Below are positions 1 to 3,000 of a DNA stretch of 64,000 nt, in pieces (position 1 is the first letter of the stretch; each line of letters opens with the position of its first letter). Made by a program: the position numbers. Location of the stretch: the NCBI RefSeq assembly GCF_055900595.2, contig NZ_CM148325.1; one strand, 5' to 3'.

Positions 1-3000
1 GGTGACAAAGTATCGATTCGCTGACCGTTAAAGATAATTTCGCCGCCCTGCGATTCGACCAGGCGCAGCAACGCCCGCCCGGTAGTGGATTTACCGCTGC
101 CAGACTCGCCCACCAGCGATAGCGTTTCGCCAGGCCAGAGATCAAAACTGACTTTCTCAACGGCATGCACTTCCCGCGTTACGCGATTCAACAAACCGCT
201 GCGCAAAGGGAAACGGGTGACCAGATTACGCACCCGTAAAACAGGTTCGCCATCCACCACCGTTTTCTGCTCGATGGGTGGTTCCTGTTTCGCTGGATGT
301 TCAAGCGATATCAATGGGAAACGTCGGGGATTATCTAACCCTTTCATCGCACCAAGTTGCGGAACAGCAGCTAACAGCGCACGGGTGTAAGGATGTTGCG
401 GTGCATGAAAAATCTGTTTGACGCTACCCGTTTCCACCGCCTCGCCCTGATACATCACCAGTACCCGATCGGCAATCTCTGCCACCACACCCATATCGTG
501 AGTGATAAAGATAACGCCCATCGACATCTCTTTTTGCAATACTTTGATTAATTGCAGGATCTGCGCCTGAATAGTGACATCCAGCGCGGTGGTTGGCTCA
601 TCGGCAATCAGCACCGCCGGGCGGCATGACAGTGCCATCGCAATCATCACTCGCTGGCGCATCCCGCCAGAGAGTTGATGCGGATAACGTGAAAGAATGG
701 TTTGTGCCTCCGGAATGCGTACCTGATCCAGCATCCGCTTCGCCTCGACCATTGCTTCTTCACGACTGGCGTTTTGATGCAGACGAATTGATTCGGCAAT
801 CTGTTCACCCACGGTAAATACCGGGTTCAGCGATGTCATCGGCTCCTGAAATATCATCGCCATATCCGCACCGCGCACATGGCGCATTTGTGCAGCGCTC
901 TGTTCGCTAAGTTCAATCACCTCACGACTGCGCCGCCGCAACAGCATTTGATCGCACTGCACTAAACCACCCGCCTGTTCCAACAGGCGCATCAATGCCA
1001 GCGCAGTCACTGACTTACCGGAGCCGGATTCGCCAACAATTGCCAGCGTCTCACCACGTTGTAGGCTAAAAGAGAGATTGCGGACCGCAGCTATTTTCTG
1101 CTGGTCCTGCCTAAAGGCAATATTCAGATTTTCAACCGCCAGCACATCACCGGCATCAAGTTCATCACTGTGTGGCAACGGTGTCCCCTTTTTCACGGTA
1201 GATACCGGTGGTTGGCGTATCGCCTGCGTAGCCCCAGGCGCGATACATTCCTTCGGTGTTAAACGGTAGCGCGACGTTACCTTCATGGTCGATAGCGATT
1301 AAGCCACCGCTACCGCCAAGCGCAGGGAGTTTTTCCATTACTACCCGCTCGCAGGCTTCCGCGAGACTTAATCCGCCGTAATCCATTAACGCGGCGATGT
1401 CATATGCCGCCAGCGCGCGGATGAAGACTTCGCCCGTGCCGGTACAAGAAACCGCCACACTGGCGTTATTGGCGTAGCATCCGGCGCCCACTAAGGGACT
1501 ATCGCCAACTCGTCCGGGTAATTTATTGGTCATTCCGCCCGTGGACGTGGCTGCCGCCAGATTTCCGTCTAAATCCAACGCCACGGCACCCACGGTGCCC
1601 ATTTTCTGTTTTTCATCCAGTGGCGCACCGCTATGGTCGAGAACCGTTGCCCCTTCCTCGCGCGCTGCCAGGAGTTGTTCATAACGCAAAGGCGTGGAGA
1701 AAATCTCCGGCGAGACGCGCTCCATGCCATGAGCAAATGCAAAATTTTCTGCCCCTTCGCCAATCATCATCACATGCGGGCTTTGCTCCATCACCAGGCG
1801 GGCAGCAAGAACCGGATTACGCAGATGACTCACGCCCGCCACCGCACCGGCTTTCAGGGTGTTACCATCCATCACACAGGCGTCGAGTTCATGCGTTTCA
1901 TCTCGCGTAAAGACTGCGCCAATTCCGGCGTTAAACAGTGGACACTCTTCCAGCAGACGCACCGCTTCCGTCACCACATCCAGCGCACTTTCGCCCGCTT
2001 CCAGCATTTTCTGCCCGGTTTCAACAATGGCAGACAGCGCCTCGATGTAGCGTAATTCCTGTTGCAGACTCATCTGCGCGCGGCTAATTGCACCTGCGCC
2101 GCCATGAATTGCAATGACTGCTTTGCCCATAGTATTCGTCCATTAAGGGTGGCTCGCCACTTTTGCTATAAATATCAGAATTTTTATGAATTACTCATTC
2201 AATTTTTGAATATAGAAAGATGGATATGGCATGTAAAGGCAGGAGCCAGCGCTACGCCCGAGGTGGCATACAGTCTGTGGCGTTTTTCTGACATAATAGG
2301 CAAATTCGATTTTGCCTCCGCAGGAGTGTTTTCATGGAATTTACCACCGGATTGATGTCGCTCGACACCGCGCTTAATGAGATGCTTTCTCGCGTTACCC
2401 CACTGACCGCCCAGGAAACGCTGCCACTGGTACAGTGTTTTGGTCGTATTCTGGCGAGCGATGTCGTTTCGCCACTGGATGTCCCGGGGTTTGATAACTC
2501 CGCTATGGACGGCTACGCGGTGCGTTTAGCCGATATTGCCTCCGGGCAACCGCTGCCCGTTGCCGGTAAATCCTTTGCCGGTCAGCCGTACCATGGTGAA
2601 TGGCCTGCGGGTACCTGCATTCGTATTATGACCGGTGCGCCGGTGCCGGAAGGCTGCGAAGCGGTGGTGATGCAGGAACAGACCGAACAGACTGACGCTG
2701 GCGTGCGTTTTACTGCTGAAGTGCGTAGCGGGCAAAATATTCGCCGTCGCGGTGAAGATATCTCTGCGGGTGCGGTTGTTTTCCCAGCGGGAACACGCCT
2801 GACTACCGCAGAGCTGCCAGTGATTGCTTCGCTGGGAATTGCCGACGTTCCGGTGATTCGTAAAGTGCGAGTAGCGCTGTTTTCCACCGGTGATGAACTC
2901 CAGTTGCCAGGCCAGCCGCTGGGCGACGGCCAAATCTACGATACCAACCGTCTCGCCGTGCACCTGATGTTAGAACAGCTGGGTTGCGAGGTAATCAACT

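What the first reader, a model, noticed from the sequence alone, without database searches (positions are those of the whole stretch)
1165..1178. gsiA appears to start at TTG, overlapping the iaaA stop
The only in-frame start giving the conserved N-terminus (PHSDELDAG...) is TTG at 1178 on the minus strand, 14 nt inside the iaaA 3' end. This implies translational coupling of iaaA and gsiA.
Basis: seen in the sequence. Interest (0 to 1): 0.2.

Follow-up and report, generated by a model that had tools for sequence, protein, structure and literature searches.

The report
gsiA TTG start overlapping iaaA
The glutathione-importer gene gsiA does start at a TTG codon 14 bases inside the end of iaaA, exactly as the E. 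coli reference annotation already records, so the finding is correct but ordinary.

Summary
The coordinates are exact. TTG lies at 1178-1176 (minus strand), the iaaA stop TGA at 1167-1165, and the overlap is 14 nt. K-12 MG1655 and RefSeq annotate the same start.

The claim that TTG is the only in-frame start is wrong. GTG 1196 and ATG 1286 lie upstream in the same open frame, and GTG 1145 lies downstream.

Comparison with 80 other species still picks the TTG:
- The aligned codon is always TTG, GTG or ATG, whereas true Val and Leu codons nearby vary synonymously.
- Only this codon has a good Shine-Dalgarno (AAGGGG, -7.8 kcal/mol).
- Codons 2-11 vary like coding sequence.
- The rival GTGs are not conserved.

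The overlap is derived. Salmonella, Klebsiella, Enterobacter and most others end iaaA at GIYRE-TAA, with the gsiA start 9-13 nt downstream. In Escherichia and the Citrobacter freundii complex the TAA became AAA. IaaA therefore reads eight more codons, to a TGA inside gsiA codons 4-5.

Translational coupling is plausible, because stop and start lie within 14 nt of each other in about 63 of 73 species examined. It is untested, and no initiation or N-terminal data for GsiA were found.

Verdict: already known, low interest.

The parts
1..1178 (-). gsiA coding sequence, first 392 codons (the gene runs off the window start). It encodes the ATP-binding subunit of the glutathione ABC importer.
   Evidence: RefSeq annotation of an identical sequence. 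Pfam ABC_tran at residues 33-197 and oligo_HPY at 248-280. 97% identical to K-12 gsiA.
1176..1178 (-). TTG initiation codon of gsiA
   Evidence: Annotated start in K-12 and RefSeq. The aligned codon is TTG in 17 and GTG in 9 of 26 close genera, and ATG in more distant ones; it is never a CTN or GTH synonym.
1185..1190 (-). Shine-Dalgarno AAGGGG, 6 nt upstream of the TTG, inside iaaA codons 314-316
   Evidence: Duplex with the 16S 3' end is -7.8 kcal/mol, against -3.0 or weaker for every rival start. AAGGAG/AAGGGG is present at the same place in the orthologous junctions.
1165..1178 (-). 14-nt overlap between the iaaA 3' end and the gsiA 5' end
   Evidence: A 61-nt junction is identical in 5130 of 5425 complete E. 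coli genomes.
1165..2130 (-). iaaA coding sequence (isoaspartyl/beta-aspartyl peptidase, 321 codons plus TGA)
   Evidence: ORF list. Pfam Asparaginase_2 covers residues 5-310. RefSeq annotation.
1189..1191 (-). AAA (Lys314) of iaaA, sitting where most other Enterobacterales have the iaaA stop codon TAA
   Evidence: Junction alignment...TAT CGN GAA TAA GGAG... in Salmonella, Klebsiella, Raoultella, Enterobacter, Lelliottia, Kosakonia and others, against GAA AAA GGGG in Escherichia and Citrobacter.
1168..1191 (-). Eight-codon IaaA tail (KGDTVATQ) created by read-through of the lost stop. It lies outside the Asparaginase_2 domain.
   Evidence: IaaA is 313 aa ending GIYRE in Salmonella, Klebsiella and Superficieibacter, against 321 aa in Escherichia and the C. 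freundii complex. The Pfam domain ends at residue 310.
1162..1167 (-). Tandem iaaA stop codons TGA TGA, formed out of frame by gsiA codons Ser4-Asp5-Glu6 (AGT GAT GAA)
   Evidence: Read directly from the sequence.
1194..1196 (-). Rival in-frame GTG, 6 codons upstream (rejected as the start)
   Evidence: No Shine-Dalgarno (-3.0 kcal/mol). Present only in E. coli in the strict sense: it is GCG in E. albertii and two other Escherichia lineages, and many genera have an in-frame stop between it and codon 1.
1143..1145 (-). Rival in-frame GTG at codon 12 (rejected as the start)
   Evidence: No Shine-Dalgarno. Across 26 genera the codon is GTG 12, GTT 8, GTA 4, GTC 1, ATC 1, which is an ordinary Val codon. 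Codons 2-11 upstream of it vary like coding sequence.
1201..1210 (-). 5' arm (CACCGGUAUC) of a predicted hairpin that encloses the gsiA Shine-Dalgarno and TTG
   Evidence: Minimum free energy -30.6 kcal/mol, z -2.42 (window sequence); -28.3 kcal/mol, z -2.02 in K-12. Not conserved outside E. coli.
1148..1157 (-). 3' arm (GAUGCCGGUG) of the same predicted hairpin, in gsiA codons 8-11
2209..2237 (-). Sigma-70-like site (TTTACA-17-TATATT, 10 of 12) upstream of iaaA; candidate operon promoter
   Evidence: Consensus scan only. No promoter-like site was found inside iaaA upstream of gsiA.

Best explanation
gsiA is translated from the TTG at 1178-1176, read as fMet, using the AAGGGG Shine-Dalgarno 6 nt upstream. 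This gives [10 protein letters not shown]...

The 14-nt overlap with iaaA is a derived state. In the ancestral Enterobacterales arrangement iaaA ends ...GIYRE-TAA, the stop is fused to the Shine-Dalgarno (TAAGGAG), and the gsiA start lies 9-13 nt downstream. In the Escherichia / Citrobacter freundii-complex lineage the TAA became AAA. iaaA ribosomes therefore read eight more codons and stop at a TGA that gsiA codons 4-5 (AGT GAT) happen to provide in the other frame.

In both arrangements a ribosome finishing iaaA is released within about 14 nt of the gsiA start. Some translational coupling is therefore likely, either by re-initiation (here by moving back 11-14 nt) or by unfolding of local structure. 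This last step is inference. The start codon and the origin of the overlap are shown; the coupling is not.
For: - Annotation: K-12 reference and RefSeq place the gsiA start at this TTG with a 14-nt overlap.
- Start-codon signature: the aligned codon 1 is TTG or GTG in 26 of 26 close genera and ATG in more distant ones. Val12 uses five different codons and Leu7 seven.
- Coding signal: summed column entropy over codons 2-11 is 8.78 / 4.98 / 13.07 at codon positions 1 / 2 / 3, and Ser4 switches AGT to TCC or TCT.
- Shine-Dalgarno: -7.8 kcal/mol at the TTG against -3.0 or weaker for rivals.
- Ancestral stop: TAA followed by a 9-13 nt spacer in Salmonella (L085, GTG start), Klebsiella, Raoultella, Enterobacter, Lelliottia, Kosakonia, Pantoea and Erwinia.
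- IaaA length: 313 aa in those genera against 321 aa in Escherichia and Citrobacter.
- Independent stop loss in Atlantibacter (GCA at the old stop position) gives the same -14 architecture with a GTG start.
- Stop-to-start distance is between -14 and +13 in about 63 of 73 loci.
- Operon context: iaaA-gsiABCD is listed together in the CysB regulon and described as operonic. No promoter-like site lies inside iaaA.
- The isolated gsiA initiation region gave 0 CPM in 5 of 5 in vitro initiation-profiling replicates, and no alternative start was called (INRI-seq, PMC9825163 Tables S2 and S3). This fits poor stand-alone initiation.
Against: - No direct evidence of initiation at the TTG. INRI-seq and in vivo Ribo-RET both read 0. 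GsiA is absent from the held part of an N-terminomics table, although that file was cut when stored.
- The INRI-seq negative is not specific: iaaA's own ATG start and moeB also read about 0, and about 30% of all genes were undetected.
- A good Shine-Dalgarno argues that gsiA can initiate on its own.
- The hairpin around the initiation region is only modestly unusual (z -2.0 to -2.4). It is absent from Citrobacter, Salmonella and Klebsiella, and no compensatory change was seen among the sequences compared.
- About 297 complete genomes, O157:H7 among those listed, carry iaaA Q116* yet keep gsiA intact. This does not suggest strict dependence on iaaA translation.
- -14 is not one of the enriched coupling spacings (-4, -1, -8) (PMC12548453).
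Confidence: 0.8

Rival explanations
1. gsiA really starts at the downstream GTG (1145-1143, codon 12), giving [11 protein letters not shown]... The 19 nt after the iaaA stop would then be an intergenic spacer and there would be no overlap.
For: Family-level homology begins only at GsiA residues 9-13, which align to residues 4-5 of solved DppD/OppD-type ATPases, so a protein starting at V12 would look normal for the family. No experimental initiation signal at the TTG.
Against: No Shine-Dalgarno: -3.0 kcal/mol, 2 nt from the codon. The codon is GTT, GTA, GTC or ATC in 14 of 26 genera, including two Escherichia lineages. Codons 2-11 show protein-level conservation (PHS-[DQ]-E-[LI]-D) and third-position-biased variation. 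INRI-seq called no alternative start there. All annotation pipelines examined use the TTG.
Confidence: 0.03
2. In E. coli gsiA starts, or also starts, at the upstream GTG (1196-1194). This would give a form six residues longer ([11 protein letters not shown]...) and a 32-nt overlap with iaaA.
For: In frame, with no stop between it and the TTG. Present in the window, K-12, O157:H7 and one other Escherichia lineage.
Against: No Shine-Dalgarno (-3.0 kcal/mol). The codon is GCG in E. albertii and two further Escherichia lineages, and GGG in the three Citrobacter junctions examined. In the genera shown, those that keep the ancestral TAA stop have an in-frame stop just upstream of codon 1. The INRI-seq fragment included this GTG, and no peak was called.
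Confidence: 0.03
3. The TTG is the start, but there is no meaningful translational coupling. gsiA initiates independently on its own Shine-Dalgarno, and the overlap is a neutral accident of iaaA stop-codon loss.
For: Good Shine-Dalgarno at optimal spacing. In Salmonella, Klebsiella, Raoultella and Siccibacter the initiation region is less structured than shuffled controls (z +1.3 to +2.0), as expected for a free-standing ribosome-binding site. The position of the iaaA stop drifts freely between lineages: -14, -8, -4, -1, +8 to +13. A lineage of about 297 complete genomes carries iaaA Q116* and keeps gsiA intact.
Against: Stop and start stay within 14 nt of each other in about 63 of 73 species despite turnover of the exact arrangement. 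Weak start codons (TTG or GTG) occur in about half of the species. The isolated K-12 initiation region gave no in vitro initiation signal. E. coli has a hairpin enclosing the Shine-Dalgarno and the TTG.
Confidence: 0.35

Closest known systems
gsiA (b0829, formerly yliA) as annotated in E. coli K-12 MG1655 NC_000913.3
   Same: Same gene, same TTG start, same 14-nt overlap with iaaA (gsiA 867520..869391, iaaA 866568..867533). The junction sequence is identical.
   Different: The window is from a somewhat divergent E. coli lineage: 97.3% identity to MG1655 over the 601-nt query. Within GsiA residues 1-25 it differs from K-12 at two positions, N11D and M23R.
Ancestral iaaA-gsiA junction of Salmonella, Klebsiella, Enterobacter and relatives (TAA stop fused to the Shine-Dalgarno, start 9-13 nt downstream)
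   Same: Same two genes, same Shine-Dalgarno position, same start position, NTG start codon, same PHS... N-terminus.
   Different: There iaaA stops before the gsiA start (IaaA 313 aa). Here the stop has been lost and iaaA ends 11 nt past the first base of the start codon (IaaA 321 aa).
Classical overlapping coupled pairs with -4 (NTGA) or -1 (TGATG) spacing, such as the E. coli trp operon pairs. The trp example is from my own knowledge; the general classes are in PMC12548453 and PMC6728339.
   Same: Co-directional genes of one operon with stop and start in close proximity. Cedecea, Buttiauxella, Dryocola and Pluralibacter have exactly the TGATG form at this same junction.
   Different: A -14 spacing is not one of the enriched classes. 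Re-initiation would need the ribosome to move back 11-14 nt. No dependence experiment exists for iaaA-gsiA.
Coat-lysis overlaps of RNA phages MS2 and fr (-50 and -38 nt), where termination of the upstream frame activates an upstream-lying start (reviewed in PMC12548453)
   Same: The start lies upstream of the stop of the preceding frame. In E. coli a local hairpin covers the start region.
   Different: The overlap here is much shorter. The hairpin is not conserved and gsiA has a strong Shine-Dalgarno. The mechanism is untested.

Membership tests
E. coli gsiA (b0829) with its curated start | Locus and synteny: moeA divergent, then iaaA, gsiA, gsiB | tested here: met
   moeA, iaaA and gsiA are annotated under the matching region in 5425 of 5426 E. 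coli genomes.
E. coli gsiA (b0829) with its curated start | The annotated start coordinate coincides with the TTG, 14 nt before the end of iaaA | tested here: met
   NC_000913.3 gsiA 867520 against iaaA end 867533. L001 gsiA 1823 against iaaA end 1836, and the codon at 1823 is TTG.
E. coli gsiA (b0829) with its curated start | Protein of the Opp/Dpp-type double ABC ATPase family | tested here: met
   ABC_tran at 33-197, oligo_HPY at 248-280, second P-loop region from about residue 346. Best solved relatives are fused DppD/OppD ATPases. Only 392 of 623 residues lie in the window.
Genes initiated at a non-AUG (UUG) codon | NTG codon preceded by a Shine-Dalgarno at about 5-9 nt | tested here: met
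   AAGGGG with a 6-nt spacer, -7.8 kcal/mol.
Genes initiated at a non-AUG (UUG) codon | The codon is conserved as a start-type codon (TTG/GTG/ATG interchange) across orthologues, rather than as Leu synonyms | tested here: met
   26 of 26 NTG in close genera. ATG 37, GTG 19, TTG 17 over 73 loci, with a few heuristic misassignments.
Genes initiated at a non-AUG (UUG) codon | Direct evidence of initiation: N-terminal peptide or initiation-site profiling peak | tested here: inconclusive
   INRI-seq 0 CPM in 5 of 5 replicates and Ribo-RET 0. GsiA is absent from the held part of the TRAINSPOTTER table. The operon belongs to the CysB (sulfur-utilisation) regulon; that it was therefore poorly expressed in the media used is my inference, not something I checked.
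Translationally coupled gene pairs (re-initiation / ribosome scanning) | Co-directional genes on one transcript with no intervening promoter or terminator | tested here: met
   Same strand. Described as operonic and listed together in the CysB regulon. No promoter-like site inside iaaA; three weak terminator-like matches on the gene strand inside iaaA are not above the shuffle expectation.
Translationally coupled gene pairs (re-initiation / ribosome scanning) | Very short stop-to-start distance | tested here: met
   -14 here; -14 to +13 in about 63 of 73 orthologous junctions.
Translationally coupled gene pairs (re-initiation / ribosome scanning) | Spacing belongs to the enriched classes -4, -1 or -8 | tested here: not met
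   Spacing is -14. The enriched classes are taken from PMC12548453.
Translationally coupled gene pairs (re-initiation / ribosome scanning) | Translation of the downstream gene depends on translation of the upstream gene | not testable with these tools
   Needs reporter or ribosome-profiling experiments with iaaA nonsense alleles.
Coupling by RNA unfolding (ribosome-binding site sequestered in structure) | Stable structure that covers the Shine-Dalgarno and start codon | tested here: inconclusive
   Hairpin of -30.6 kcal/mol, z -2.42, 2 of 200 shuffles as good (window sequence). -28.3 kcal/mol, z -2.02 in K-12.
Coupling by RNA unfolding (ribosome-binding site sequestered in structure) | The structure is conserved or supported by compensatory changes in relatives | tested here: not met
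   Lost or weak in E. albertii (z -0.46) and Citrobacter (-0.40, +1.82). Absent in Salmonella (+1.96), Klebsiella (+1.87) and Raoultella (+1.34).

The most novel reading that the evidence does not exclude
Loss of the iaaA stop codon in the Escherichia / C. freundii lineage moved iaaA termination from about 10 nt upstream of the gsiA start to 11 nt downstream of it. In E. coli this coincides with a new hairpin that buries the gsiA Shine-Dalgarno and TTG. Together these could have turned a free-standing ribosome-binding site into one that works only when iaaA is being translated, by backward re-initiation or unfolding. If so, the iaaA Q116* allele found in about 297 complete genomes, O157:H7 among those listed, would silence glutathione import at the translational level.
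Probability: 0.15. Interest if true: 0.3.

Novelty: already known. Interest (0 to 1): 0.1.

Why it matters
It matters little. The start codon and the overlap are already in the reference annotation, and a short overlap between neighbouring operon genes is routine in bacteria.

The useful by-products are three:
- A clean comparative argument that the annotated TTG is right, which no initiation-profiling or N-terminal dataset examined here currently confirms.
- A small worked example of how a gene overlap arises. A stop codon is lost, and the upstream frame simply runs on to the next chance stop inside the neighbour. This happened at least twice at this junction.
- Natural alleles (iaaA Q116*, and a possible iaaA-gsiA fusion) that could serve to test coupling.

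Tried and rejected
- Rival starts GTG 1145, GTG 1196 and ATG 1286. Rejected on Shine-Dalgarno strength and conservation.
- A conserved RNA structure around the start. The hairpin is E. coli-specific, and no compensatory change was seen among the sequences compared.
- Experimental confirmation of the start:
  - INRI-seq and Ribo-RET values are zero and uninformative.
  - The TRAINSPOTTER N-terminomics table contains IaaA but not GsiA in the part that is held.
  - No supplement is held for the Ribo-RET preprint.
  - PMC4006352, which I recalled as the id of the Li et al. 2014 absolute-synthesis-rate paper, is not held.
- Literature on the gsiA start codon. Nothing relevant was found.
- A solved GsiA structure that might show the N-terminus. 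None exists; only DppD/OppD relatives are solved.
- Programmed +1 frameshifting at GAA-AAA-GGG to make an IaaA-GsiA fusion. Considered because 940-aa fusion proteins exist in databases. Those come from a genomic A5-to-A4 deletion found only in draft assemblies and in 0 of 5425 complete genomes. The site has no canonical slippery or stimulatory features, so this was rejected as very unlikely.
- Antisense features. A 63-aa plus-strand ORF (1078-1269) and a terminator-like match at 1166-1183 (+) are mechanical hits. Terminator-like hits numbered 6 against 2.4 +/- 1.9 expected.
- Dating the stop loss. E. coli, C. portucalensis and Salmonella are roughly equidistant at these proteins (IaaA 87-90%, GsiA 84-88%). 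I therefore could not decide between one loss plus a reversal in Salmonella, two independent losses, and recombination.
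Full report
**What is in the sequence**

On the minus strand the window begins inside gsiA, with iaaA immediately upstream. 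iaaA runs from ATG 2130 to TGA 1167-1165 (321 codons). Its last codons are TAC CGT GAA AAA GGG GAC ACC GTT GCC ACA CAG TGA TGA.

One base out of phase, TTG at 1178-1176 opens the frame TTG CCA CAC AGT GAT GAA CTT GAT GCC GGT GAT GTG CTG..., which reads (M)[21 protein letters not shown]. The two frames share 1178..1165, which is 14 nt.

The statement that TTG is the only in-frame start giving this N-terminus is not correct. The gsiA frame is open back to TAA 1301-1299 and contains ATG 1286 and GTG 1196. GTG 1145 (codon 12) lies downstream. Four NTG codons in about 52 open codons is close to the chance expectation, so the TTG has to be justified by other evidence.

**Annotation**

A 601-nt query across the junction matches 5425 of 5426 complete E. 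coli genomes, always under iaaA and gsiA. In the 100%-identical genome, in an MG1655 derivative and in O157:H7, RefSeq places the gsiA start 14 nt before the end of iaaA, and the codon there is TTG.

The curated K-12 reference has iaaA at 866568..867533 and gsiA at 867520..869391 (NP_415350.2). The finding therefore restates the existing annotation. A 61-nt stretch spanning the Shine-Dalgarno, the TTG and the stop is identical in 5130 of 5425 genomes.

**Is the TTG really the start?**

I fetched 80 orthologous loci from different species and Salmonella separately. The evidence is as follows.

- **Start-codon signature.** At the aligned position, 26 of 26 close genera carry TTG (17) or GTG (9). 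More distant genera (Cedecea, Buttiauxella, Erwinia, Pantoea, Rahnella) carry ATG. No CTN or GTH synonym ever appears. By contrast the genuine Val12 codon is GTG, GTT, GTA, GTC or ATC, and Leu7 uses seven different codons. An interchange of Leu, Val and Met codons restricted to NTG is the signature of an initiation codon.
- **Coding signal downstream.** Codons 2-11 behave as coding sequence. Summed column entropy is 8.78 / 4.98 / 13.07 at codon positions 1 / 2 / 3. P-H-S is nearly invariant, and Ser4 switches between the AGY and TCN codon families.
- **Shine-Dalgarno.** Only the TTG has a usable one: AAGGGG with a 6-nt spacer, at -7.8 kcal/mol, against -3.0 for GTG 1196 and GTG 1145 and -1.5 for ATG 1286.
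- **Rival codons are not conserved.** GTG 1196 exists only in E. coli in the strict sense. Many genera have an in-frame stop between that position and codon 1.

Family-level homology to solved DppD/OppD ATPases begins only at residues 9-13. PHSDELD is therefore a GsiA-specific N-terminal extension, which is why a shorter start looks superficially possible. The comparative data exclude it.

**Direct experimental evidence is missing**

- In the INRI-seq data set (PMC9825163), synthetic fragments of every K-12 gene were used for in vitro initiation profiling. The gsiA fragment carried 30 nt of upstream sequence.
  - It gave 0 CPM in all five replicates at the annotated start.
  - No alternative start was called.
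  - The in vivo Ribo-RET value listed beside it is also 0.
- About 70% of genes were detected overall, and gsiB, gsiC and gsiD were among them. However, iaaA and moeB were also missed, so the negative result is weak evidence.
- An N-terminomics table (PMC13245402) contains the IaaA N-terminus but not GsiA in the part that is held.

**Where the overlap comes from**

In most Enterobacterales iaaA ends ...GGN ATT TAT CGN GAA TAA. The stop is fused to the Shine-Dalgarno (TAAGGAG or TAAGGGG), and the gsiA start follows 9-13 nt later. This holds for Klebsiella, Raoultella, Enterobacter, Lelliottia, Kluyvera, Kosakonia, Siccibacter, Superficieibacter, Pantoea and Erwinia. It also holds for Salmonella: TAA GGAGCCGCAG GTG, with IaaA 313 aa.

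In all five Escherichia species-level lineages examined (counting the window's own genome) and in the C. freundii complex, the TAA is AAA (1191-1189). IaaA then continues through KGDTVATQ to the TGA that gsiA codons AGT GAT supply out of frame, giving 321 aa and the 14-nt overlap.

The tail lies outside the Asparaginase_2 domain, which covers residues 5-310, and it follows gsiA's coding sequence passively. A C. cronae IaaA of 322 aa ends ...ATQR. This is what a synonymous AGT-to-AGC change in gsiA Ser4 would produce, although I saw only the protein and not the DNA.

The junction has been remodelled repeatedly:
- Atlantibacter lost the stop independently (GCA at that position, tail AGGAGVTE) and arrived at the same -14 architecture with a GTG start.
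- An unclassified Enterobacterales genome has a -8 overlap.
- Erwinia psidii and E. mallotivora have ATGA (-4), and the -4 spacing in two Rahnella species implies the same. Only the spacing was computed for these; their junction DNA was not displayed.
- Cedecea, Buttiauxella, Dryocola and Pluralibacter have TGATG (-1).

Across 73 loci with iaaA upstream, about 63 have a stop-to-start distance between -14 and +13.

**Coupling**

The genes are co-transcribed according to the literature: they are described as operonic and are listed together in the CysB regulon. The only promoter-like match lies upstream of iaaA.

A ribosome terminating at 1167-1165 physically covers the gsiA Shine-Dalgarno and TTG. 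In the ancestral arrangement it terminates on the Shine-Dalgarno itself. Either geometry is within the range for which re-initiation or unfolding-type coupling has been described (PMC12548453), although -14 is not one of the enriched spacings.

In E. coli a hairpin with arms at 1210-1201 and 1157-1148 encloses the Shine-Dalgarno and the TTG. Its predicted energy is -30.6 kcal/mol with z -2.42 in the window, and -28.3 kcal/mol with z -2.02 in K-12. It also forms in the minimum-energy fold of the INRI-seq construct. The hairpin is not conserved. In Salmonella, Klebsiella, Raoultella and Siccibacter the region is less structured than shuffled sequences, and no compensatory changes are seen.

About 297 complete genomes share a 61-nt stretch identical to that of O157:H7 strain MB9-1, which carries iaaA Q116* 618 nt upstream of the TTG. 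In MB9-1 gsiA is intact. This does not point to strict dependence.

My reading is that some coupling is likely (about 0.55), that strict dependence is unlikely, and that neither is demonstrated.

**Verdict**

- The start-codon interpretation is right and already curated.
- The coupling inference is reasonable but untested.
- The one addition is that the overlap is a lineage-specific consequence of stop-codon loss.
- This is an ordinary feature of low interest.

Noticed in passing
L003 1213-1215 (O157:H7 strain MB9-1); equivalent to window about 1785-1787, minus strand: iaaA carries a premature stop Q116* (CAA to TAA) and is flagged as a pseudogene, while gsiA downstream is intact. The identical 61-mer occurs in 297 of 5342 matching complete genomes; those listed are O157:H7 or EHEC-sized genomes. 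This is a natural uncoupling of iaaA translation from gsiA.
   Followed up: partly
L087 and L088, junction equivalent to window 1189-1193: 940-aa IaaA-GsiA fusion proteins (P0138-P0140) arise from a one-base deletion, A5 to A4, in GAAAAAGGGG. This is the very codon that replaced the ancestral stop. The deletion is seen in 7 draft contigs but in 0 of 5425 complete genomes, so it may be a rare allele or a homopolymer error.
   Followed up: partly
L044 (Atlantibacter sp. RC6), junction around 2470-2520: Independent loss of the iaaA stop (GCA at the ancestral TAA position, tail AGGAGVTE). It gives the same 14-nt overlap, but with a GTG start: convergent evolution of the overlap.
   Followed up: partly
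P0036 (Citrobacter cronae IaaA, 322 aa): IaaA ends ...ATQR, one residue longer. This is what a synonymous AGT-to-AGC change in gsiA Ser4 would produce by destroying the first TGA, with the tandem second TGA then used. Inferred from the protein only.
   Followed up: no
window 900-1500: Only 10 of 5425 E. coli genomes are at least 99% identical over this 601-nt stretch; identity to MG1655 is 97.3%. The exact match is a dog isolate, Z0117EC0005. The window therefore comes from an uncommon E. coli lineage at this locus.
   Followed up: no
P0130, P0170, P0172, P0176 and others: Gene callers disagree on the gsiA start in other records. Leclercia GsiA is annotated as 623 or 640 aa, and one E. coli entry as 646 aa. 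This shows that the start is not trivial for automatic pipelines.
   Followed up: no
window 56570-56714 (-) and 4331-4408 (-): Rfam matches above the gathering score: a molybdenum-cofactor riboswitch (104.5 bits) and naRNA4/CssrE (74.3 bits). Both are known elements.
   Followed up: no
window 1162-1167 (-): iaaA ends in tandem stops TGA TGA, both formed out of frame by gsiA codons Ser4-Asp5-Glu6.
   Followed up: yes
L085, L016, L017, L040, L010: about 40 nt either side of the gsiA start: In the species that keep the ancestral TAA stop (L085, L016, L017, L040), and also in one Citrobacter that carries the derived overlap (L010), the gsiA initiation region folds less stably than shuffled sequences (z +1.3 to +2.0). 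In E. coli it folds more stably (z -2.0 to -2.4). This is a lineage difference in ribosome-binding-site accessibility.
   Followed up: partly
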